A DNA stretch of 10,162 nucleotides from a virus. The translations under genes were made by a program, and so were the position numbers. The stretch lies in the UHGV virus genome UHGV-0247313; one strand, 5' to 3'. Positions 1 to 10,162 of this stretch are shown here, one piece after another (the first letter of the stretch is position 1; each line of letters opens with the position of its first letter). The notes below the pieces were generated by a model, which saw only the letters and a list, made by a program, of their open reading frames with translations, was not told where the DNA came from and searched no databases.

Positions 1-241
1 TGATGGCATCGGGCTGGTTATCCCGCAGCCACAGCAAAACCGGGGCCATCAGCAGATTCTGGTCGCCGCTGAAATCCTCAATCACCGCGTTCAGGGTGTA
101 ACGGTACTCCCACGACATGGAGCTGGCCCCCGTGGCAACCAGCGAACCGTTATCCACAAACAGATGCAGTTTGTCCGGGTTATTGCGGACATAAGGCACC
201 GCTTTATTGAGGGCGTGGCGCAGGGATTGTGGTTTGTTCAC
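1..241 (-). CDS. R: Tail completion protein gpR-like, 5' part only (runs off the left edge)
   Basis: Minus-strand frame open from a GTG at 241..239, preceded by AGGAG 7 nt upstream, to position 1. Translation VNKPQSLRHALNKAVPYVRNNPDKLHLFVDNGSLVATGASS...LLWLRDNQPDAI resembles P2 gpR as I recall it. It overlaps the lysC 3' end, as in P2. Not in the ORF track because it has no stop in the window. Confidence 0.6.
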   Translation of the reverse strand, partial: MNKPQSLRHALNKAVPYVRNNPDKLHLFVDNGSLVATGASSMSWEYRYTLNAVIEDFSGDQNLLMAPVLLWLRDNQPDAI

Positions 242-494
242 TGTTTCGCTCCTGACACGCAATAATCATGTCCACTTTGTCTGCACAGACCGCCCAGGCG
301 GCCTCCGTTTCATCCAGCAACGCGTTCAGATCACCGTTAGTGCGCGGCGTTGCCTGATCCAGCCGACACGGCGTCACTCGCGGACAACCACTGACGGTAA
401 GCTGTACCTCCGGTGAGTGCCGGACGTTCCCGCAGCCGGATAATGTCAGCAGGCAAAGGAGTATCAGCCCAGCGGCGTAAATCCTCGTTCTCAC
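204..494 (-). CDS. lysC: o-spanin (Rz1-like outer-membrane lipoprotein), LysC-like
   Basis: 96 aa with a lipoprotein signal and lipobox (LLTLSGC). Starts inside lysB in another frame, the typical spanin arrangement. Confidence 0.8.
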   Translation of the reverse strand: MRTRIYAAGLILLCLLTLSGCGNVRHSPEVQLTVSGCPRVTPCRLDQATPRTNGDLNALLDETEAAWAVCADKVDMIIACQERNSEQTTIPAPRPQ

Positions 495-765
495 GTTTCA
501 GTTCCTCGATCCGGTGTTGTCGTTGTCTCAGCAGTGCACTGGTCTGTTCTGCTTCGGCATAGAGCCGCGCCTGCTCCCGGTTATTGGTTTCAGTCAGAAT
601 GGACAGGCTGATAAGCTGGCTGTTTTTCTTCGTCAGTTCCTGCGCTTTACTTTTCAGCGCCGCGCGCTGCGTTTCGATGGTGTGGCTGGCGCTGTTAAGC
701 CGCCACGACTGCCAGCCCAGCGCAACGAGTGCCAGCGCCACCACTACTGCCAGCGCACGCGTCAT
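337..765 (-). CDS. lysB: i-spanin (Rz-like), LysB-like
   Basis: 142 aa with an N-terminal transmembrane helix (ALAVVVALALVALGW) and a charged coiled-coil-like remainder. AAGGAG lies 8 nt upstream of the ATG at 765. Contains the embedded lysC. Confidence 0.8.
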   Translation of the reverse strand: MTRALAVVVALALVALGWQSWRLNSASHTIETQRAALKSKAQELTKKNSQLISLSILTETNNREQARLYAEAEQTSALLRQRQHRIEELKRENEDLRRWADTPLPADIIRLRERPALTGGTAYRQWLSASDAVSAGSGNAAH

Positions 766-925
766 AGTCCAGCTCCTTTAAGGCACCAGGCCATCTCCCG
801 CGCACGGCGGTTATCCAGCCCCTGATTAAACACACCTTTTACATAAACCCAGCGCGGCAACTGTCGGCACGCATCTGCCCAGCGCCGCTGATTGAGCAAT
901 TTCACCAGTGTGGAACTACAGGCAT
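766..925 (-). pseudogene. 3' remnant of an upstream lysis-module gene (lysA position), left by a deletion
   Basis: A minus-strand frame stays open through ...RRWADACRQLPRWVYVKGVFNQGLDNRRAREMAWCLKELDY* and stops 1 nt past the lysB start. It has no plausible start and abuts the O 3' end. Confidence 0.3.
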
Positions 926-1654
926 TGCCCGTTGCTGCTTCTGCAGAGCAGACTCCAGTTCAGACAGGCGTTCTTCCTGCTCAGACAGAGATTTTTCGGT
1001 TCGCGCGCTCAGGTTTTGCTGCTCAGTGGCGACCAGCTCCACGGCCTTATGCACATCAGAGAACCGGGCGTCATCGGACTGCTCTTTTTTGGTGAACAGC
1101 GCCGTGACGCGGGAAAACAGGGACGGTTTGTCGTCCTGGACTTCCTCCAGTTCGATCACCGTTTCCTCTGCAGCGGTAAAGAGATTGGCAGGATTCTGCT
1201 TGCGGTTTGCCAGCGGGTTATGGGCTGCACTGGCGCTGAATGTCAGCATTTCAGTGCCCAGACTGGCAGGGTCATCAGTGGCAGCCAGGCCGACCAGGTA
1301 GGCTTTGCCCGTATCAGCGAACTTCGGGCTGACTTCCATAGAGGTGAATAATTTCTGGCCTTTTTTCACCAGTTCCACCAGGGACTCCGTTGGCTCAACG
1401 TCGGCATACAGCGCCATCTTGCCTGCCAGCGGACCTTCCGTGATTTCCTCAGCAAACAGCGCCGTCACCTTGCCGTAGCGGTTAAAGGTGCTGTCCGGCA
1501 GATAAGACTTGATGTGCTCAAGGTTAATCAGCGCGGTATACACCGCCGGGTTGTAGCTGGCTGCCATCTGTTCCAGCCATTCACGCTGGATTTCGCGTCC
1601 GTCGGTGGTGGCACCTTCCACCCCGATGCGAAAACGCTTTGCTTTCACTGTCAT
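902..1654 (-). CDS. O: Capsid scaffolding protein gpO-like, probably 3'-truncated with a junction-derived C-terminus
   Basis: 250 aa. FRIGVEGATTDGREI...INLEHI...YLVGLAATDDPASLGTE...SDDARFSDVHKAVE matches the P2 gpO family. GGAG lies 8 nt upstream of the ATG. Shorter than P2 gpO as I recall it (about 284 aa); the last residues (RAMPVVPHW) look junction-derived. Confidence 0.85.
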   Translation of the reverse strand: MTVKAKRFRIGVEGATTDGREIQREWLEQMAASYNPAVYTALINLEHIKSYLPDSTFNRYGKVTALFAEEITEGPLAGKMALYADVEPTESLVELVKKGQKLFTSMEVSPKFADTGKAYLVGLAATDDPASLGTEMLTFSASAAHNPLANRKQNPANLFTAAEETVIELEEVQDDKPSLFSRVTALFTKKEQSDDARFSDVHKAVELVATEQQNLSARTEKSLSEQEERLSELESALQKQQRAMPVVPHW

Positions 1655-1796: not shown

Positions 1797-3563
1797 ATGA
1801 ACACCACACTGACACCCGCAGATCTCGATCCCCGTCGGCAGGCCATGCTGCTGTACTTTCAGGGATACCGCGTAGCCCGCATTGCTGAAATGCTGGGCGA
1901 GAAAGTTGCAACCGTTCACAGCTGGAAAAAACGCGACAAGTGGGGTGACTATGGGCCGCTGGATCAGATGCAGCTCACCACCGCCGCACGCTACTGCCAG
2001 CTCATTATGAAGGAGCACAAAGAAGGGAAAGATTTCAAAGAGATTGACCTGCTGGCGCGCCAGTCGGAGCGCCATGCGCGGATCGGCAAGTTTAACAATG
2101 GCGGCAACGAAGCCGACTTAAACCCTAACGTCGCCAACCGCAACAAAGGCCCGCGTCGTCAGCCGGAAAAGAACGTTTTCACCGATGAACAGATTGAGAA
2201 GCTGGAAGAAATCTTCCATTCCTCCATGTTCAACTACCAGCGCCACTGGTGGGAAGCCGGAAAAACCAACCGCATCCGCAACCTGCTGAAGTCACGCCAG
2301 ATCGGCGCGACCTTCTATTTTGCCCGTGAAGCCCTGATTGACGCCCTGCTAACCGGGCGTAACCAGATTTTCCTTTCCGCCAGCAAGGCACAGGCCCACG
2401 TCTTTAAGCAGTACATCATCGACTTCGCCAAAGAAGTGGAGGTGGAGCTGAAAGGCGATCCGATAGTGCTTCCTAACGGGGCCACGCTGTACTTCCTCGG
2501 CACCAATGCCCGCACGGCCCAGAGTTACCACGGCAACCTGTATCTGGATGAATATTTCTGGATACCGAAATTCCAAGAGCTGCGCAAAGTGGCTTCCGGT
2601 ATGGCTATTCACAAAAAATGGCGACAAACCTATTTTTCCACGCCATCCAGCCTGACACACAGTGCTTATCCGTTCTGGTCCGGTGCGCTGTTCAACCGTG
2701 GGCGCAACAAAGCCGACAAGGTGGACATCGACCTGTCCCACAGCAATCTGGCCCCCGGCCTGCTGTGCACAGACGGGCAATACCGCCAGATAGTCACCGT
2801 GGAAGATGCGGTGCGCGGCGGCTGTAACCTGTTCGACCTCGACCAGCTACGCATGGAGTACAGCCCGGACGAATACCAGAACCTGCTGATGTGCGAGTTC
2901 GTGGACGATCTCGCGTCCGTGTTCCCGCTCAGCGAGCTGCAAGCGTGCATGGTGGACAGTTGGGAAATCTGGACCGACTTTCATGCACTGGCCCTGCGCC
3001 CGTTTGGCTGGCGCGAAGTGTGGATCGGTTATGACCCGGCAAAAGGTACGCAGAACGGCGACAGTGCCGGATGCGTGGTGGTGGCACCGCCAGCCGTGCC
3101 GGGTGGTAAGTTCCGCATTCTTGAGCGTCACCAGTGGCGCGGGATGGACTTCCGCGCCCAGGCTGACGCCATCAAAAAACTGACCGAGCAGTACAACGTG
3201 ACCTACATCGGCATCGACTCGACAGGTGTCGGCCACGGGGTTTACGAGAACGTGAAAGCGTTTTTTCCAGCCGTCCGGGAGTTTGTCTACAACCCCAACG
3301 TTAAAAACGCCCTGGTACTCAAGGCCTACGACATTATCAGTCACCGTCGTCTGGAGTTTGACGCCGGACACACCGACATAGCGCAGTCATTTATGGCAAT
3401 CCGTCGCGCCACCACCGCCAGCGGCAACCGCCCAACCTATGAAGCCAGCCGCAGCGAAGAAGCCAGCCATGCCGATCTGGCCTGGGCAACAATGCACGCA
3501 CTGTTTAACGAACCGCTGCAGGGCGAGTCCGCCAATACCAGCAATATTGTGGAGATTTTTTGA
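1797..3563 (+). CDS. P: Terminase large (ATPase) subunit gpP-like
   Basis: 588 aa, the size and family of P2 gpP. Divergent from O. Its stop overlaps the portal start (TGATG). Confidence 0.9.
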   Translation: MNTTLTPADLDPRRQAMLLYFQGYRVARIAEMLGEKVATVHSWKKRDKWGDYGPLDQMQLTTAARYCQLIMKEHKEGKDFKEIDLLARQSERHARIGKFNNGGNEADLNPNVANRNKGPRRQPEKNVFTDEQIEKLEEIFHSSMFNYQRHWWEAGKTNRIRNLLKSRQIGATFYFAREALIDALLTGRNQIFLSASKAQAHVFKQYIIDFAKEVEVELKGDPIVLPNGATLYFLGTNARTAQSYHGNLYLDEYFWIPKFQELRKVASGMAIHKKWRQTYFSTPSSLTHSAYPFWSGALFNRGRNKADKVDIDLSHSNLAPGLLCTDGQYRQIVTVEDAVRGGCNLFDLDQLRMEYSPDEYQNLLMCEFVDDLASVFPLSELQACMVDSWEIWTDFHALALRPFGWREVWIGYDPAKGTQNGDSAGCVVVAPPAVPGGKFRILERHQWRGMDFRAQADAIKKLTEQYNVTYIGIDSTGVGHGVYENVKAFFPAVREFVYNPNVKNALVLKAYDIISHRRLEFDAGHTDIAQSFMAIRRATTASGNRPTYEASRSEEASHADLAWATMHALFNEPLQGESANTSNIVEIF

Positions 3564-3979
3564 TGGGAAAGAGTAAGAAAAACCGCGCTGCGGCGACGAA
3601 CCAGATCCAGCATAAAAACCAAACTTCAGCCGAAGCATTCAGCTTCGGTGATCCCGTTCCTGTTCTGGACCGCCGCGAATTACTGGACTATGTGGAATGC
3701 GTAAAGATGGACCGCTGGTATGAGCCACCCGTAAGTTTTGACGGACTGGCGCGAACATTCCGCGCCGCCGTACACCACAGTTCACCGATTGCAGTAAAGT
3801 GCAACATTCTGACCAGCACCTACATCCCTCACCCGCTGCTCAGCCAGCAGGCGTTTTCACGTTTTGTGCAGGACTATCTGGTTTTTGGTAACGCCTACCT
3901 GGAGAAACGCACGAACCGATTCGGTGAAGTTATCGCCCTTGAGCCTGCGCTGGCAAAATACACCCGACGCGGATTAGAC

Positions 3980-4030
3980 GAACAGCGTGGCGGACTCGTT
4001 GAGCAGGGCGGATGGGATGGCAGAAAGATA
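3980..4030. repeat. Inverted-repeat arm, exact reverse complement of 4161..4211 (51 bp)
   Basis: Base-by-base comparison. A further 9-bp pair is 3971..3979 ggattagac and 4151..4159 gtctaatcc. Confidence 0.95.
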
Positions 4031-4160
4031 GCCGGGCAGGCCGTAGATCTCCTGGTTGATGTCCGGTTCCATCAGATGAAAAATGCTGCCTTTCGTGAAC
4101 TGATACGGCTGCGTGGTCATGCCGTATTGCACAAACCAGTAGGTATCTAGGTCTAATCCC

Positions 4161-4211
4161 TATCTTTCTGCCATCCCATCCGCCCTGCTCAACGAGTCCG
4201 CCACGCTGTTC
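4161..4211. repeat. Inverted-repeat arm in native orientation, partner of 3980..4030
   Basis: Encodes in-frame native portal sequence YLSAIPSALLNESATLF. Confidence 0.95.
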
Positions 4212-4657
4212 CGCCGAAAGTATTACATTAACGGTAGTCATGCAGGCTTCATCATGTACATGACCGATGCCGCGCAGAACCAGGAAGATGTGAACAACCT
4301 CCGCAATGCGATGAAAAGTGCCAAAGGCCCTGGCAACTTCCGCAACCTGTTTATGTACTCGCCTAATGGTAAAAAAGACGGACTTCAGATTATCCCGTTG
4401 TCAGAAGTCACAGCGAAGGATGAGTTTCTGAATATCAAGAACGTGAGCCGTGATGACATGATGGCGGCACACCGCGTGCCGCCGCAAATGATGGGAATTA
4501 TGCCTAATAATGTCGGGGGGTTTGGGGATGTGGAGAAGGCTAGCAAGGTATTCGTAAGAAACGAATTGATGCCCCTGCAGAAACGATTGCAGGAACTAAA
4601 TAACTGGTTGGACGAAGAAGTGCTCAATTTTTCAACCTATGAGCTTTAGTTTTAAAA

Positions 4658-4685
4658 CGAAGACCATTAGGTCTTCGCTTTATTT
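4658..4685. terminator. Bidirectional intrinsic terminator between convergent Q and the retron RT gene
   Basis: 8-bp stem cgaagacc/ggtcttcg with loop atta. T-rich tracts on both sides (ctttattt on plus; ttttaaa on minus). The RT stop codon sits in the loop. Confidence 0.6.
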
Positions 4686-5629
4686 AAAGGGTTCTTTCCA
4701 TATTTTTTTTCTAATTTGCTAATATAAGTTATTAATCTCCTATGGCTTTTTGAATCCACACTTAAAATAAATGACAACCATCCCCTAACGTGTTCTATCT
4801 CAGAAGACTTACCGCAAAATATATGATGTATCTTTGCTCTAATTTCTTTATATTTTTCTCTACCTATCCCAACTTTCTCTTGTGAAATAACTAAACCTGT
4901 AACTTTCCTCTGACTACGAGGCCCACTAATACAAGTTTTTTTTGAGTTAATAACCAATCCTTCACTTGGGATTATAGAAAATAAAAAATCACGTGCTTTA
5001 ACAACCTTTTTCATAGACTGTGCAGATAAGGTGAGATCATCGGCATATCTCGTATATATCAAGCCCCGACTACCTGCATAACCCTGAATACGATAATCAA
5101 GTTTAGAACATATTAGATTAGCTAATTTAGGTGATGATGGAGCACCTTGTGGTAGCAGATTTTTATAACAACATATTTTTGTCAAAACTGAAGATATTAG
5201 TCGATTATAACCAAGAGAATGGAACACTCCAAAAACTTTGTTAGCAGTTAAACTTGGGAAAAAATCCTCCAAATCAATATTCAGTATAAAGTTTGCCCCA
5301 ATATGCGGGGTAGCATTATTCAAAATAGATTGGTGCTTTTCAAATCCAATAGAAAAAGGAGATGACGACAGTTTATCTAAAATGTTACGTAGAACCCATC
5401 CTTGTAAGGCTTTAAGTTCTCGAGAAGGTTGGTAAATGGTTCTCATTCTCTTCTCTGGGCCTTTCTTTTCTACAGTGTAGATCCTATAGCGAAAATCAGC
5501 TGTATAGATTAACAACCGAAGTGTTTCAACAGATATGCGAGTCGCCTTAGACATGTCATGCAAATTGTTCATGACAGGTAGGCCGAGATTTCTCAATCTA
5601 AAAGTGTTCAAATATTCAGCGGATTTCAT
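4667..5629 (-). CDS. ret: Retron reverse transcriptase, Retron-Eco1 (Ec86)-type
   Basis: 320 aa with RT motifs: NIDLEDFFPS (motif A), LPQGAPSSPKLANL (motif B), YADD (motif C). Directly downstream of the msr-msd element. AT-rich unlike the flanking phage genes. Confidence 0.95.
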   Translation of the reverse strand: MKSAEYLNTFRLRNLGLPVMNNLHDMSKATRISVETLRLLIYTADFRYRIYTVEKKGPEKRMRTIYQPSRELKALQGWVLRNILDKLSSSPFSIGFEKHQSILNNATPHIGANFILNIDLEDFFPSLTANKVFGVFHSLGYNRLISSVLTKICCYKNLLPQGAPSSPKLANLICSKLDYRIQGYAGSRGLIYTRYADDLTLSAQSMKKVVKARDFLFSIIPSEGLVINSKKTCISGPRSQRKVTGLVISQEKVGIGREKYKEIRAKIHHIFCGKSSEIEHVRGWLSFILSVDSKSHRRLITYISKLEKKYGKNPLNKAKT

Positions 5630-5635
5630 GAAAGT

Positions 5636-5804
5636 TGCGCACCCTTACGTCAGAAAAAACGGGTTTCCTGGTTGGCTCGGAGAGCATCAGGCGATGCTCT
5701 CCGTTCCAACAAGGAAAACAGACAGTAACTCAGATTCAATGCAGGATGCCGAAACAACATCCAGAGGTTGACCTTAATGATAAACCTCTCGCTAAGGGTG
5801 CGCA
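5636..5804 (-). ncRNA. msr-msd: Retron msr-msd non-coding RNA (msDNA template), Ec86-type
   Basis: Flanked by 12-bp inverted repeats: tgcgcaccctta at 5636..5647 and taagggtgcgca at 5793..5804. Internal 10-bp perfect msd stem ggagagcatc/gatgctctcc at 5679..5702. Lies immediately upstream of the RT start. Matches the Ec86 msr-msd as I recall it. Confidence 0.85.
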
Positions 5805-6715
5805 TACGGAATCTTATCATAGTTAAATGTTGATTTTCTACGGTTTTCAAAATTCATAATCTCAAGCCGCAATCGGTCAAGTGTCTTTCTATCAAAGACG
5901 CTCCTAACATAGCTAGCCCCCAAAGCAGTGACCTGATAACCATCAGTCATTTGAAGTATTTTTCGTTCATTTATTAGACGAGAAACAACGGATCTAACAA
6001 TAATTTTAGATAAAACATCATCTTGCTTTATCGCTTTAAAAGCTAGTTCACACAGTGTGCGGTAGTTGACACTATCCAGTAAATAGATACAAGGCAATAG
6101 AAACCGCTCTGCGTATAATATATTTCCAATATCTTTTGATACTTTATTTTCTTTCCTAACCTTCTTAATAGATGCCATTAATTTTTTATATAATCGTAAT
6201 TTTCTGGCAACATCAATAGATGAATCACACATTTCTTTTAGTTCATTTGAACTACAACGCAAAACAGATTTTGAATTAAACTTACGCAACAGGCGAACAG
6301 GACCATAGTTAATAAAGCTACGTTTTGATTTAAATTTTGCATCTTGAATGCAAATCAACTTTCTCCTTAAGTTTTCATTATTAGAGAACGCACCAAGCTC
6401 TGTGAAAGACCCCGGACTTTCAGGAAATAAAATTATTACATCGACAGCTTCAGCCAGAATATTTTCTAAACTTAAAAGGCTATGCTGCCCTTGACCAGCC
6501 AAAAGATCATCAAATAGATCTTCTGGATAAAATATATCAACATCACTGAACTTTGCTAAAAATTGTGATAATTGATGACGCCAAGATTGATGATTAGCAA
6601 CGTCACCACCACATAGAAAAATGGTTATTTTAATATTAGCTCCTCGATAGAAGCCTTTCTTTGTGAGATGTCCTATAAGCTGTTGTTGCTGCTCATCGGT
6701 AAATTTTTTATTCAT
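5792..6715 (-). CDS. Retron effector: nucleoside deoxyribosyltransferase-like (NDT-like) N-terminal domain with a C-terminal putative DNA-binding domain
   Basis: 307 aa. N-terminal Rossmann-like motifs (ITIFLCGGD; VIILFPESPGSFTELGA). Upstream of and overlapping the msr a1 repeat. Same AT-rich composition as the RT gene. Confidence 0.8.
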   Translation of the reverse strand: MNKKFTDEQQQQLIGHLTKKGFYRGANIKITIFLCGGDVANHQSWRHQLSQFLAKFSDVDIFYPEDLFDDLLAGQGQHSLLSLENILAEAVDVIILFPESPGSFTELGAFSNNENLRRKLICIQDAKFKSKRSFINYGPVRLLRKFNSKSVLRCSSNELKEMCDSSIDVARKLRLYKKLMASIKKVRKENKVSKDIGNILYAERFLLPCIYLLDSVNYRTLCELAFKAIKQDDVLSKIIVRSVVSRLINERKILQMTDGYQVTALGASYVRSVFDRKTLDRLRLEIMNFENRRKSTFNYDKIPYAHP

Positions 6716-7187
6716 AATCTCCCCGCTTTTTTTTCTACTTTATACATCAAGTTATGAATAGATCCAATCTCCATACCACATGGCGCGCGCTCGTATCCCC
6801 GCCACGCCTGCCCGCTTTATGCAGTGGTTTTCATGCACATGCATAACATGAGCAAAAGCCCGCCAGTTCTGGCGGATCTGAGCAAAGACGATCCTCAATC
6901 GATCATGCGATTTCATGCAGCATAGTCATGCACTGTCAAGGAAGTGAAAATCCGTATCTGAATGGCCACTTGAAAAACGGATCATACGGGTTTACAAAGA
7001 TGAATGTTCGCTGTGAACGGGAAGCGGAAGTTAACTTTCAGATAACATAATCCATATGCACGAGAACCTCTAAAATAGAATGGGACACCTAAGCGGGGTA
7101 CTTACAACGATTCTTTCCATATTCACAGTTAACACTCTGTTTGGCGTATTTTTATTCAAATAGCAAACACCAATAAAAGGAGTTTCC

Positions 7188-7523
7188 ATGAACAATATTC
7201 CCCCTATACCACAGTTAGGAATTTATGTCTCAAAAATCGATCCCACCCTACGTATCACTGTAACCGATGTTGATATTGTTGATGGTGAGGATGATTCTCC
7301 TGATGATGAATTGTTTTATTTAGTCCACTGGATCGAGGGGGAAGATGAAAGTGATATGACAGCAATGGGATTTGAGCTAGACCCAGTAGAGTGGCAGGCT
7401 TTCGTTGAATCTGAGCAATTAGTGTTTGAGCGTGATCCGTACATGGATTCAATCCCCGAAAATTCAAACTTGGCAAAGATTCGGGATTTTCTCATGAAGA
7501 CTAAACAGAATGATCATTCGTAA
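7188..7523 (+). CDS. Hypothetical small, strongly acidic protein (111 aa)
   Basis: AAGGAG lies 7 nt upstream of the ATG. About 26 Asp+Glu against about 8 Lys+Arg by manual count. No family recognised. Confidence 0.6.
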   Translation: MNNIPPIPQLGIYVSKIDPTLRITVTDVDIVDGEDDSPDDELFYLVHWIEGEDESDMTAMGFELDPVEWQAFVESEQLVFERDPYMDSIPENSNLAKIRDFLMKTKQNDHS

Positions 7524-7677
7524 GTGTAAGCATCCATCAGGAAAATGGTTTTGTAAGTGAATCATCAACTTTTAGAGAGTCTCAGACACTCCCACTTCTG
7601 CTTCTGACACAAAGCGGACGATCACTTATCAAAATAACCGCCCACCTTACGCCTTATTTCACTCATTGCCCAAACTA

Positions 7678-7707
7678 GCCCCCATCAGAATGAATCCTCC
7701 TGGGGGC
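7678..7707. terminator. Possible weak hairpin terminator downstream of the DinI-like gene
   Basis: 7-bp stem gccccca/tgggggc with a 16-nt loop. Weak T-tracts on both sides. Confidence 0.2.
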
Positions 7708-7715
7708 AACATTTC

Positions 7716-7949
7716 TTAATGCAGCCAGCTGTCGTCCTCCCACACCTTCTGCATAATTTTCATCACTTGTTTTCTTTCTTCATCCAGTTGCAGTCCGGTT
7801 AGTTCCACACCGTTAGAGCTACCTTTGCGAATGCGAATTACCGTTTTGGGATACAGGGGGCGCAGATTGCGGTAAAGCTCGGATTCAAGGGCGTCCAGGG
7901 TAGACTGGCTAATCTTCTGCTCTTTATCGATCATTATTTCAATGCGCAT
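7716..7949 (-). CDS. dinI: DinI-like protein (SOS-response family)
   Basis: Start chosen at the internal ATG 7949..7947, preceded by AGGTGA with a 5-nt spacer. MRIEIMIDKEQKISQSTLDALESELYRNL...QKVWEDDSWLH has DinI family length and pattern. The track ORF 7716..8021 is a spurious 5' extension. Confidence 0.8.
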   Translation of the reverse strand: MRIEIMIDKEQKISQSTLDALESELYRNLRPLYPKTVIRIRKGSSNGVELTGLQLDEERKQVMKIMQKVWEDDSWLH

Positions 7950-7959
7950 AAAAGTCACC

Positions 7960-8148
7960 TCAGCTGATGACATCCATTGAGCGGTTGTATTCGTGGCTTC
8001 TGATTTTTGCCATGAGTTCATCAGTCAATTCAGAAACCCACTGCAGAGCCAGCCCCTTCTCTTCATCACTACACTCACTAGCCGCTACAAGCTTAAGAAA
8101 AAAATCAATGCGCTGGAGCTTCAAAGACTCCAAAAAATAGTCCTGCAT
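7960..8148 (-). CDS. Hypothetical 62-aa protein, first gene of the LexA-box operon
   Basis: AGGAGG lies 4 nt upstream of the ATG. Its stop overlaps the dinI-like RBS, suggesting coupling. No family recognised. Confidence 0.5.
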   Translation of the reverse strand: MQDYFLESLKLQRIDFFLKLVAASECSDEEKGLALQWVSELTDELMAKIRSHEYNRSMDVIS

Positions 8149-8300: not shown

Positions 8301-9746
8301 TTAATACAGGTTCCGCCACTTATCATCTTCCTTCAGACGCTGGTTCCGATAGAAGATACGCAGGCCTGCTCCTGACGGAATACTGCCGCCGCGAAGGAGC
8401 AAATCGACTTCTTTCTCGCTGCCATCAAATCCCCTGGACTTCAGTTCATAGACGAGCTGCTGTCGCTGATGGTCTGTAATTCGCTGTTTGTAGTCTTTAC
8501 GCCGTTTCGGTTTCACCTGGCGTAACCTTGCAGCCAGTTCCCGGCGCTCTTTTTTGCTCATACTGTGCAGGTAATTGTGCAACTCCTTGTCATTCATACG
8601 GGTAATATCCGTTCTGGAGTCCCCATCAGCTGATTTGTCTTTCCCTTGTTGGTTCAAATTTTCAGCAAGGGGACAGTTATTGCCACGAGTCCAAGGGGCG
8701 CAAGCGCCCTGGTCGGCTGCCGCCTCCTGAACGTCAACGGCCTTACGAACCATTTTCCACTTCACCGCATGAGTGCAGATCTTGCCCTCTGCAATGGGTG
8801 ACCAGATGCCATAAATACGAATACCGTGATCGCCATATGCGGTCGGTTCTTCGTTGATTTCATAAGCAGTTCTGATGAGGTGATATTTGCGGGGAACCAG
8901 TACGCCGCCCTGCTTCATGATGTAGGTGGCAAAACAACCAGCATCAGCAGCAGCCAGGATTGCATCAAGACGCGGGTTATCCAGTACCGGCGCACCTGCT
9001 TTTTTGTCACCCTGTTGCCTTGCCGCCTGACCAGCCAGCAATCGCAGTTCACGGTAAGCCTGACGCCCCGGAATGCCAAAGAAGCGGAATTGCTGAACAC
9101 GATGCAGAGACGCCCAGGCATTAACGTATTCAGCGTTATCACGCAGGGATTTACCCGTTTCCTTGCTGATCTCCCCAGCCAGACCACGCCCGTCAATGTT
9201 CTTACTGATGTATTTCGCGATATAGCTTGTTGGCGTACCTTTGCGCGGGTTTATCAGCTCAGACTTAAAGCGTGGTCCCGTGTTATTGCCCAGCTCCTCG
9301 CGGTCTTCACGGATGGCAAACTTACGCAGTAATGCAGTGATGGCGCGGCGGTCTTTTTTACGCATGAAACACATGAGATGCCAGTGCACAGTACCGTCAT
9401 GATGCGGCTCAGCTACCGCACCTGCAGCAACACGCCCGATCTCTGCGGTTGCACTCATGACGTAATGTGGCAGTTTCTCTTTTGCCACCTCATTAATCGG
9501 TACGCATGGCAGGCAGTGAATCTGAGCCAGAAAACCATCTACCAGCGTTGAATCTTCAGTCAGATCGGTAAGCAGCCAGATTTCTGGTGCGGTTAATAAA
9601 TGAGGTTGCGCTGGGTTCAACTTGTTCCGCAGAATCTGCACATTCATGCCAGCACGTTCTGCCAGTTGCACCAGGTTGTGGCGCAATGCGAATGCACGAC
9701 AGGCTTCATCAAAATGTGGATGTTTGGAAACTTGGTAATCAAACAT
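8301..9746 (-). CDS. A: In-frame fusion: CII-like regulator N-terminus (about 110 aa) joined to a P2 gpA-like rolling-circle replication nickase C-terminal region
   Basis: N-terminus [25 protein letters not shown]...[29 protein letters not shown] matches the phage CII (186 CII/CP76-like) family. It then switches to [15 protein letters not shown] (HUH motif) and [12 protein letters not shown] (paired catalytic tyrosines). The HUH motif sits near residue 120 here; in P2 gpA as I recall it sits far further in. Start taken at ATG 9746, as in the plus-strand copy at 10087. Confidence 0.75.
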
Positions 9747-9805
9747 GGTCAATGCCTCTGATGTATTTCAGAATCGAACTAATTAAGGTTTAGATTGCAT
9801 TCTGA
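9671..9805. repeat. Left arm of a 135-bp perfect inverted repeat (partner 10028..10162)
   Basis: Exact reverse-complement match over the full length, limited by the window end. Holds the cII-like start, the intergenic region and the last 9 codons of the 73-aa ORF. Confidence 0.95.
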
Positions 9806-9832
9806 TCATCATTAAACGAGGAATGTTGCATC

Positions 9833-10054
9833 ATGAGACCTAACATTTCAATCACTCTTACCACCCCTCATGTGACTATTGAACGCTATAGCGAGCTGAC
9901 AGGGCTATCCATCGATACCATCAATGACATGTTGGCTGATGGACGCCTTATCCGTCACCGACTGCGCAAAGATAAAAAACGCGAAAAAGTGATGATCAAC
10001 ATAGCAGCAATGACCGTTGATGCGCTTTCAGAATGCAATCTAAACCTTAATTAG
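9833..10054 (+). CDS. Small helix-turn-helix DNA-binding regulator (Apl/Cox-like?)
   Basis: 73 aa with an HTH-like segment ([23 protein letters not shown]) and a basic tail. Sits directly upstream of the plus-strand cII-like start, as apl/cox precedes cII/B in 186/P2-type early operons. Confidence 0.45.
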
Positions 10055-10162
10055 TTCGATTCTGAAATACATCAGAGGCATTGACCATGTTTGATTACCA
10101 AGTTTCCAAACATCCACATTTTGATGAAGCCTGTCGTGCATTCGCATTGCGCCACAACCTGG
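10028..10162. repeat. Right arm of the 135-bp inverted repeat (partner 9671..9805)
   Basis: Reverse complement of 9671..9805. It may extend past the window end. Confidence 0.95.
10087..10162 (+). CDS. CII-like regulator, 5' end only (second, plus-strand copy; runs off the right edge)
   Basis: ATG at 10087 with AGAGG upstream. [25 protein letters not shown] is identical to the N-terminus of the minus-strand fusion gene. Confidence 0.65.

What the first reader, a model, noticed from the sequence alone, without database searches (positions are those of the whole stretch)
7188..7523. Strongly acidic 111-aa ORF: candidate DNA mimic or anti-defence protein
The ORF has a near-perfect Shine-Dalgarno sequence and extreme acidity, with Asp/Glu runs such as DGEDDSPDDE and EGEDESD. 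Small highly acidic proteins in mobile-element accessory regions are often DNA mimics (Ocr and ArdA-type anti-restriction) or other anti-defence factors. I do not recognise this sequence, so it is a candidate for an uncharacterised function.
Basis: inference. Interest (0 to 1): 0.5.

Follow-up and report, generated by a model that had tools for sequence, protein, structure and literature searches.

The report
Acidic orphan gene beside prophage cos
The 111-codon acidic ORF is a real, conserved, horizontally mobile gene (ybl33, family DUF8087) of the defective P2-like prophage of E. coli B/BL21; it resembles no characterised protein, so the idea that it is a DNA-mimic or anti-defence factor stays an untested guess.

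Summary
Window 7188-7523(+) encodes a 111-aa protein (pI 4.05, 26 D/E against 7 K/R) behind an AAGGAG Shine-Dalgarno. It is under purifying selection (dN/dS 0.12-0.22) and is identical to BL21(DE3) WP_001059831.1, "Ybl33", Pfam DUF8087, PHROG 17127.

It is not related to Ocr, ArdA or KlcA. There is no HMM hit. The predicted fold is a small SH3-like beta-barrel with acidic loops and a C-terminal helix, and it has no significant structural match.

It does not belong to the neighbouring retron Eco1. The same cos-ORF-DinI block occurs with at least 17 other cargos.

It is a roughly 535-bp single-gene cassette. It sits where phage P2 carries its lysogenic-conversion genes old and tin, in the same orientation. 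It ends in a fossil integrase 5' end, and in Klebsiella P2-like prophages the gene lies inside the cI-int lysogeny operon. Elsewhere it sits in islands beside varied defence systems. It is essentially absent from plasmids and sequenced phages.

Best guess (about 0.4): a non-enzymatic acidic decoy, made by the integrated element, that sequesters a nucleic-acid-binding protein of a rival phage or a host immune system. Function is untested. Interest is moderate.

The parts
6783..6934 (.). cos (packaging) region of the P2-like prophage. The equivalent of the 19-nt cohesive end is at 6790-6808. It separates the retron cargo (portal side) from the acidic-ORF cassette (gpA side).
   Evidence: 87-90% identical to Fels-2, SopEphi and other P2-like phages. 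It aligns to the P2 cosL/cosR junction. About 1300 E. coli genomes carry it.
7025..7187 (+). Non-coding leader that travels with the gene. It has stops in all three frames.
   Evidence: Nucleotide homology with the Morganella island and the Providencia P2-like prophage starts at exactly 7025. No coding remnant was found.
7122..7152 (+). Weak sigma-70-like promoter candidate: TTCACA, 19 nt, TATTTT. This is inferred only.
   Evidence: A loose scan gives 9 of 12 matches with a non-optimal spacer. It is conserved in close homologues. The strict scan found no promoter.
7177..7182 (+). Shine-Dalgarno sequence AAGGAG, 5 nt upstream of the ATG.
   Evidence: Read directly from the sequence. It is conserved in all six aligned contexts.
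7188..7523 (+). ybl33 / DUF8087 coding sequence: 111 aa, pI 4.05, net charge -19.
   Evidence: and dN/dS 0.12-0.22. AF2 topology: b11-15, b22-31, b43-50, b61-64, a66-76, b78-82, a94-108.
7510..7560 (+). Fossil 5' end of a P2-family integrase gene (MIIRKCKHPSGKWFCK*), overlapping the 3' end of the ORF. It marks the right edge of the cassette.
   Evidence: tblastn against integrase N-termini. Remnants of 47-71 codons follow DUF8087 in 8 other contexts. An intact int overlaps the stop codon in Klebsiella prophages.
7678..7707 (.). GC-rich hairpin (GCCCCC...GGGGGC) between the convergent acidic ORF and the DinI-like gene. It is a possible shared terminator.
   Evidence: The strict terminator scan did not call it.

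Best explanation
ybl33 is a self-contained single-gene 'moron' of integrative elements. It began as a gene between the repressor and the integrase in the lysogeny operon of P2-like prophages. It was later copied, together with a stub of int, into other accessory slots. In E. coli B it sits in the slot next to cos where phage P2 carries its lysogenic-conversion operon old-tin, in the same orientation.

It encodes a non-enzymatic 12.8-kDa protein. The predicted structure is a small SH3-like beta-barrel whose loops and faces are densely acidic, followed by a basic amphipathic C-terminal helix.

The most likely mode of action is stoichiometric sequestration. The integrated element makes the protein, and it binds the basic nucleic-acid-binding surface of another protein. 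This is nucleic-acid mimicry in the broad sense, as the SH3-like antirepressor CarS does with operator DNA. The effect would be to disable a factor of a competing phage or satellite, or a host nucleic-acid-targeting immune protein.

Shown: the gene is real, conserved and mobile; its acidity is conserved; it is independent of the retron; it derives from a lysogeny operon. Inferred: expression in the lysogen, the decoy mechanism, and the class of target. My split within this explanation is exclusion of rivals about 0.2, anti-defence about 0.2.
For: Real and selected.

Acidity conserved across a family that is 30-100% identical, with no conserved catalytic-type residues. Invariant positions are P8, G11, Y13, V25, L78 and W69, plus D56, E63 and E68.

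Stand-alone cassette with sharp shared borders, 7025-7559.

No fixed partner. The retron is adjacent in only 46 of about 132 E. coli genomes and 2 of 27 IMG/VR contigs, and there are at least 17 different cargos on the portal side.

Neighbours elsewhere are varied defence systems: Septu PtuAB, PD-T7-1, a TmtA-like helicase, a helicase-PLD, Gabija plus RM, and TIR-STAND.

In Klebsiella the operon is cI, Flk_N-like, DUF8087, int, with overlapping stop and start codons. int remnants follow the gene everywhere else.

P2 old-tin has the same slot and orientation and is annotated as lysogenic conversion.

Precedent for an acidic (pI 4.1) SH3-like DNA mimic: CarS, PMC2926617.
Against: No binding partner, expression data or phenotype exists, and no paper mentions the gene or family.

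The model confidence is only moderate, and the two acidic runs fall in low-confidence loops. The first run is absent in some distant members, so part of the acidity may be disordered filler.

No consensus promoter or terminator was found.

I could not analyse the 3D charge pattern.

Association with defence islands may only reflect shared integration hotspots.
Confidence: 0.4

Rival explanations
1. Classical entry-phase anti-restriction DNA mimic of the Ocr/ArdA type. It would be made as soon as the element enters a new cell and would block type I R-M or BREX by imitating dsDNA.
For: Extreme acidity similar to known mimics. Carried by several kinds of mobile element, including islands that also carry KlcA/Antirestrict and DUF932. 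No contrary homology.
Against: No HMM match to the Ocr, ArdA or Antirestrict families, even at E<=5 across 34 members. The beta-rich fold is unlike theirs, and no structural hit was found. One hit in 72,556 plasmids (a prophage-like record) and none in 50,697 phage records, whereas entry-phase anti-restriction genes are common there (general knowledge). It is embedded in the cI-int lysogeny operon in Klebsiella.
Confidence: 0.12
2. Regulator of the element's own lysogeny module. It could be a CarS-like antirepressor, or a decoy for the arm-binding domain of the integrase or for Cox/Apl, tuning integration, excision or immunity.
For: Persistent adjacency to integrase genes in both near and distant members. 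Divergent from the AlpA-GPA replication operon in two small elements. SH3-like acidic antirepressor precedent.
Against: The cassette stays under purifying selection after separation from a functional int, and next to unrelated backbones: CP4-like islands, T4SS islands, beside a filamentous prophage. It is present in only about 10% of E. coli P2-like prophages that share this cos, so it is accessory, not core.
Confidence: 0.12
3. Orphan immunity protein or antitoxin that neutralises a nuclease toxin (bacteriocin, CDI or T6SS effector) by substrate mimicry, giving the lysogen protection from competitors.
For: Small acidic immunity proteins are a known class (general knowledge). An Imm42 gene, a PAAR-Tle1-like effector or Hcp lie near some copies. 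There are weak fold hits to CdiI/CdiA-CT entries.
Confidence: 0.07
4. Component or accessory of the adjacent retron Eco1 (Ec86) system.
For: It lies 472 nt from the retron effector gene in E. coli B.
Against: It is on the opposite strand, and the cos site lies between them. The identical ORF block occurs with at least 17 other cargos, and the retron is present in only 2 of 27 IMG/VR contigs and 46 of about 132 E. coli genomes. Homologues occur in contexts with no retron.
Confidence: 0.01
5. Decaying or functionless ORF in a defective prophage.
For: The E. coli B prophage is defective: a CII::gpA fusion and a truncated lysozyme gene. No expression data exist.
Against: dN/dS is 0.12-0.22 across genera. 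The ORF is intact in every context, and the strong SD is conserved. It is 100% identical in apparently intact P2-like prophages.
Confidence: 0.03

Closest known systems
Pfam DUF8087 (PF26332) / PHROG 17127
   Same: This protein is a full-length member. The PHROG match is E=2e-70 over 1-111 of 111. PF26332 is precomputed for every homologue. The RefSeq product name is 'DUF8087 domain-containing protein'.
   Different: Nothing differs; this is the family. It has no assigned function and no literature.
Phage P2 old-tin lysogenic-conversion operon (TO region)
   Same: Same slot (between cos and the end of the gpA early operon) and same orientation (starting near cos and converging on gpA). It is non-essential and variably present.
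   Different: No sequence relationship. Old is an ATPase-nuclease and Tin a 253-aa protein. Ybl33 is a 111-aa non-enzymatic acidic protein. Expression in the lysogen is not shown.
Ocr (T7 gp0.3) and ArdA DNA-mimic anti-restriction proteins
   Same: Small, very acidic, non-enzymatic, and carried by mobile elements.
   Different: No HMM or structural similarity. The predicted fold is a beta-barrel rather than the Ocr or ArdA folds. It is almost absent from plasmids and sequenced phages. It has a lysogeny-operon origin.
CarS antirepressor of Myxococcus xanthus (PDB 2KSS)
   Same: Acidic (pI 4.1) five-stranded SH3-like protein of about 86-111 aa that mimics operator DNA and sequesters a repressor's recognition helix (PMC2926617). 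It is the best precedent for how an acidic SH3-like barrel can act as a DNA mimic.
Small SH3-like barrels FeoA and DUF1653 (PDB 6e55, 3be3)
   Same: Best structural matches of the model, with 53-64 residues aligned. A DUF1653 phage protein also appears in the BFVD search.

Membership tests
DUF8087 (PF26332) / PHROG 17127 | Full-length profile match | tested here: met
   PHROG 17127 matches at E=2e-70 over 1-111/111. PF26332 is precomputed on the 98%-identical cluster representative and on all 61 homologues. The RefSeq name confirms it. The local Pfam copy lacks this model.
Ocr (PF08684) | Sequence/HMM similarity to T7 gp0.3 | tested here: not met
   No Pfam hit at E<=0.01, nor at E<=5 for any of 34 family members.
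Ocr (PF08684) | All-helical elongated fold that mimics bent B-DNA | tested here: not met
ArdA (PF07275) | HMM match and the roughly 165-aa three-domain elongated architecture | tested here: not met
   No HMM hit. The protein is 111 aa with a single small domain. No structural match.
ArdB/KlcA (PF03230 Antirestrict) | HMM match | tested here: not met
   No hit. True Antirestrict genes are separate ORFs about 4 kb away in the Morganella and Proteus islands.
DNA-mimic proteins (functional class) | Strong, conserved net negative charge | tested here: met
   Net charge -19, pI 4.05. The family median is about -0.15 charge per residue, with D56, E63 and E68 conserved.
DNA-mimic proteins (functional class) | Surface carboxylates arranged like a DNA phosphate backbone | not testable with these tools
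The two acidic runs fall in loops of lower confidence.
DNA-mimic proteins (functional class) | Binds a DNA-binding protein in competition with DNA | not testable with these tools
   This needs biochemistry.
Retron Eco1 (type II-A) system | Obligatory co-occurrence with the RT, msr-msd and NDT effector | tested here: not met
   Adjacent to the retron in 46 of about 132 E. coli genomes and 2 of 27 IMG/VR contigs. cos lies between them.
Known anti-phage defence proteins (PADLOC-DB v2) | HMM match to a known or candidate defence protein | tested here: not met
   No hit at E<=0.1.
Prophage moron / lysogenic-conversion cassette | Variable presence among related prophages, a discrete cassette with atypical composition, and an orientation independent of the lytic operons | tested here: met
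   About 132 of about 1300 E. coli genomes with this cos region carry it. Borders are 7025-7559. GC is 40% against 51-57% in the backbone. It is convergent with the early operon, like P2 old-tin.
Prophage moron / lysogenic-conversion cassette | Own promoter and terminator; expressed in the lysogen | tested here: inconclusive
   Only a weak promoter candidate and a hairpin without a clear T-run. The strict scan was negative. No expression data were available.

The most novel reading that the evidence does not exclude
DUF8087 is a new structural class of nucleic-acid-mimicking decoy: an acidic SH3-like barrel that prophages and islands express from the integrated state, originally from the cI-int operon. 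It would neutralise a DNA-binding protein of rival phages or satellites, or of a host immune system. If so, the standard expression strain BL21(DE3) constitutively carries an uncharacterised inhibitor that could bias phage and defence-system experiments done in B strains.
Probability: 0.25. Interest if true: 0.65.

Novelty: new variant of a known kind. Interest (0 to 1): 0.4.

Why it matters
If the decoy reading is right, this would add a new fold to the short list of protein mimics of nucleic acid. It would also show that P2-like prophages keep such a gene in their lysogeny module and in the old/tin slot, among the defence hotspots described by Rousset et al. 2022 (PMC9122126).

Practically, the gene is present in every E. 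coli B, BL21 and REL606 derivative. Any activity against phages, satellites or defence systems would be a hidden variable in work done in these strains.

If it has no such activity, it is one more conserved prophage gene of unknown function. As a sequence family it is already catalogued (DUF8087, PHROG 17127). What is missing is any function.

Tried and rejected
- Profile searches of the ORF and its family against Pfam, NCBIfam and PADLOC gave nothing except PHROG 17127, of unknown function.
- PDB sequence searches with two profiles gave only chance hits, E about 1.
- tblastn found no match in 50,697 phage records. It found one plasmid record, which is really a P2-like prophage with the same retron.
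- Literature searches for DUF8087, WP_001059831, ybl33, PF26332 and phrog_17127 found nothing relevant. Rousset et al. list the protein only as 'hypothetical' in their hotspot table.
- The retron-partner hypothesis is rejected by distribution.
- The 163-nt leader was checked for a remnant of an upstream gene (Flk_N-like or CI). None was found.
- Flanking repeats (direct 7022/7612; inverted 7062/7570) were considered as transposition or cassette signatures. They are short, imperfect and not conserved in other contexts, so they are probably chance.
- Rfam found no RNA family in or around the ORF.
- No LexA-box-like CTGT-N8-ACAG was seen upstream by eye.
- The search for related loci with the divergent alignment failed for lack of a conserved stretch. 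With the close alignment only 4 species-representative genomes were found. That search depends on peptide patterns, so 4 is a lower bound.

Full report
**1. What the window is**

The window is the defective P2/186-like prophage of E. coli B. It is 100% identical to BL21(DE3), REL606 and other B-lineage genomes over the region of interest.

In window coordinates the layout is:
- lysB/lysC, 204-765(-)
- scaffold gene gpO, 902-1654(-)
- terminase gpP, 1797-3563(+)
- portal gpQ, 3560-4649(+)
- retron Eco1/Ec86 reverse transcriptase, 4667-5629(-)
- retron NDT effector, 5792-6715(-), matching PADLOC RT_II-A and NDT_II-A
- the cos packaging region, 6783-6934, with the cohesive-end equivalent at 6790-6808
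- the acidic ORF, 7188-7523(+)
- a DinI-like gene, 7716-7949(-)
- a 62-aa PHROG 698 gene, 7960-8148(-)
- a CII::gpA fusion, 8301-9752(-)
- an apl/cox-like gene

**2.

The ORF has an ATG start and a TAA stop, with AAGGAG 5 nt upstream. It encodes 111 aa with 26 D/E against 7 K/R, net charge -19 and pI 4.05, and it contains the two quoted acidic runs at residues 32-41 and 50-56.

It is a real gene:
- It equals RefSeq WP_001059831.1, named "Ybl33" in UniProt and "DUF8087 domain-containing protein" in recent RefSeq annotation.
- It matches PHROG 17127 end to end.
- It has 61 homologue clusters in Escherichia, Klebsiella, Raoultella, Citrobacter, Enterobacter, Serratia, Morganella, Providencia, Proteus, Edwardsiella, Pectobacterium and Xenorhabdus.
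- dN/dS against nine orthologues is 0.12-0.22.

An exhaustive HMM search of 1.84 billion cluster representatives found only 35 at E<0.001. The distant ones are 68-130 aa and match only residues ~5-80 of the profile. They include Pantoea and Nitrosospira proteins, and all are assigned to PF26332. Acidity is a family property: median net charge per residue is about -0.15. D56, E63 and E68 are conserved family-wide, alongside P8, G11, Y13, V25, L78 and W69. The first acidic run is a loop of variable length and is missing in some members.

**3. What the protein looks like**

Two AlphaFold2 runs on different alignments gave the same topology: b11-15, b22-31, b43-50, b61-64, helix 66-76, b78-82, and a C-terminal helix at 94-108. 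Mean pLDDT was 76 and 70. Both acidic runs fall in the b2-b3 and b3-b4 loops, where confidence is lower.

There is no hit to the Ocr, ArdA or Antirestrict families, or to any Pfam, NCBIfam or PADLOC model. No conserved residue pattern suggests catalysis. The protein is most simply read as a binding module.

**4. It is not part of the retron**

The ORF is on the opposite strand, and the cos site lies between it and the retron.

Among complete E. coli genomes:
- 214 of 5426 carry the ORF.
- About 132 carry it at >=99% identity, in the cos-ORF-DinI arrangement.
- Only 46 have the retron next to it, mostly laboratory B strains.

In IMG/VR, 27 P2-like contigs have the same cos-leader-ORF-DinI-gpA block. 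Their portal side carries at least 17 different cargos, and only 2 have the retron. One example is E. coli MS6193, where the identical protein sits beside a PDC-S59-like gene.

About 1300 E. coli genomes have this cos region, so roughly one in ten of these prophages carries the ORF.

**5. Anatomy and origin of the cassette**

Nucleotide homology with copies in quite different settings starts at exactly 7025 and ends at 7559. These copies include a Morganella CP4-like island and a Providencia P2-like prophage, where the gene lies downstream of ogr. The unit is therefore 163 nt of non-coding leader, the ORF, and 36 nt downstream. The leader has stops in all frames and no remnant of an upstream gene.

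Those 36 nt, together with the last 14 nt of the ORF, encode MIIRKCKHPSGKWFCK*. This is a fossil of the N-terminus of a P2-family integrase. Longer fossils of 47-71 codons follow the gene in:
- ECONIH1-type E. coli islands
- Morganella
- Providencia
- Proteus
- Lonsdalea
- Symbiopectobacterium
- Serratia bockelmannii
- three IMG/VR prophages

In Klebsiella aerogenes and K. pneumoniae P2-like prophages the gene lies inside the lysogeny operon. The order is cI, a Flk_N-like membrane protein, DUF8087, then int. There are 10 nt before its start, and the int start overlaps its stop. Distant members in small integrative elements also lie within about 1.5 kb of the integrase. In two of these elements the gene is divergent from an AlpA-GPA replication operon.

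The simplest history is that the gene originated between repressor and integrase and was later copied with a stub of int into other accessory slots.

In E. coli B it sits where phage P2 has old-tin. That operon starts near cos and is transcribed towards the end of the gpA operon. P2 annotates it as non-essential lysogenic-conversion genes, with the transcript start about 150 nt from cosR.

Only a weak promoter candidate is present (TTCACA, 19 nt, TATTTT at 7122-7152), along with a GC-rich hairpin at 7678-7707. The strict scans were negative.

**6. Neighbourhoods elsewhere**

The gene has no constant partner, but it is repeatedly embedded among defence genes:
- Septu PtuA/B directly downstream in Providencia
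- PD-T7-1 in Proteus
- a TmtA/Mokosh-like 1589-aa helicase in ECONIH1
- a helicase-PLD protein in Morganella
- a DUF4365-TPR protein and T4SS genes in Lonsdalea
- conflict-system domains and SIR2 in Serratia fonticola
- Gabija plus R-M, or TIR-STAND, in the small GPA elements

It is essentially absent from plasmids. The single hit among 72,556 records is a prophage-like record with the same retron. It is absent from 50,697 deposited phage genomes.

**7. Interpretation**

The shown facts describe a mobile, single-gene, purifying-selected accessory gene of integrative elements. It encodes a non-enzymatic, strongly acidic small barrel.

The facts exclude membership in the Ocr, ArdA or KlcA families, and they exclude a role in the retron.

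They argue against a classical entry-phase anti-restriction protein, because such genes are frequent on plasmids and lytic phages (general knowledge) and this one is not. Its ancestral and present positions are those of genes expressed from the integrated element.

My best explanation, at confidence about 0.4, is a stoichiometric acidic decoy made by the resident element. It would sequester the basic nucleic-acid-binding surface of a protein from a rival phage or satellite (exclusion, about 0.2) or from a host immune nuclease (anti-defence, about 0.2). CarS of Myxococcus shows that an acidic (pI 4.1) SH3-like protein can mimic operator DNA and capture a repressor's recognition helix (PMC2926617). 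That is an analogy only, not homology.

Rival explanations:
- an Ocr/ArdA-like entry-phase mimic (0.12)
- a regulator of the element's own immunity or integration module (0.12)
- an orphan immunity protein or antitoxin (0.07)
- a functionless ORF (0.03)
- a retron component (0.01)

The remaining probability goes to functions I have not considered.

**8. Novelty and interest**

As a sequence family it is already catalogued (DUF8087, PHROG 17127), and Rousset et al. list it as "hypothetical" among P2 hotspot arrangements. No function or publication exists. If the decoy reading is right, it is a new structural variant of a known kind of protein.

Interest is moderate (0.4). It is an easy, well-defined experimental target present in every BL21 culture, but nothing computed here shows what it does.

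**9. Caveat about the window itself**

The window differs from every complete E. coli genome at two places unrelated to the finding:
- A 180-nt inverted segment at 3980-4159 splits the portal gene and creates a perfect 52-nt inverted repeat.
- The right end, 9805-10162, is inverted, creating a perfect 135-nt inverted repeat.

These look like artefacts or deliberate perturbations, not biology.

Noticed in passing
window 3980-4159 (with 4160-4211): A 180-nt segment of the portal gene is inverted relative to BL21(DE3). This creates a perfect 52-nt inverted repeat (3980-4031 / 4160-4211) and splits gpQ into two ORFs (3560-4150 and 4254-4649). None of 5426 complete E. coli genomes spans this junction. 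It is probably an assembly artefact or a perturbation of the window.
   Followed up: yes
window 9805-10162 (with 9671-9805): The right end of the window is the reverse complement of the BL21(DE3) sequence. The apl/cox-like gene (9833-10054) therefore points the wrong way, and a perfect 135-nt inverted repeat arises.
   Followed up: partly
window 4667-6715 versus 6783-6934: Retron Eco1 (Ec86) lies between the portal gene and cos, whereas in phage P2 only 187 nt with the tQ terminator lie there. This prophage lineage therefore has two cargo slots, one on each side of cos. At least 17 alternative cargos occupy the portal-side slot in IMG/VR relatives.
   Followed up: partly
window 7510-7560: A 16-codon fossil of a P2-family integrase N-terminus overlaps the end of the acidic ORF. 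Longer fossils follow the gene in eight other genera or contexts.
   Followed up: yes
window 8301-9752: One 483-aa ORF fuses the N-terminal part of a CII-like regulator to the C-terminal part of replication protein gpA. This deletion removes most of the early region and explains why the prophage is defective.
   Followed up: no
window 5630-5791: The msr-msd region of retron Ec86 gets no Rfam match at gathering threshold.
   Followed up: no
window 6752-6916 (-): A 54-aa ORF overlaps the conserved cos region. It is annotated as a hypothetical protein in some genomes (WP_072199413.1 in MS6193). It is probably not a gene, because the conservation there is explained by cos.
   Followed up: no
L002 7626-8009; L055 6538-6921: A 127-aa predicted membrane protein (PHROG 26730, unknown function) follows DUF8087 and the int fossil both in the ECONIH1-type island and in three IMG/VR P2-like prophages. 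It may travel with the cassette.
   Followed up: no
L009-L013, L067-L069 (Klebsiella P2-like prophages): A 215-aa Flk_N-like protein with a C-terminal membrane anchor is conserved between cI and DUF8087 in the lysogeny operon (PHROG 5825, with weak similarity to Ant-type anti-repressor families). It is another uncharacterised candidate for a lysogen-expressed gene.
   Followed up: no
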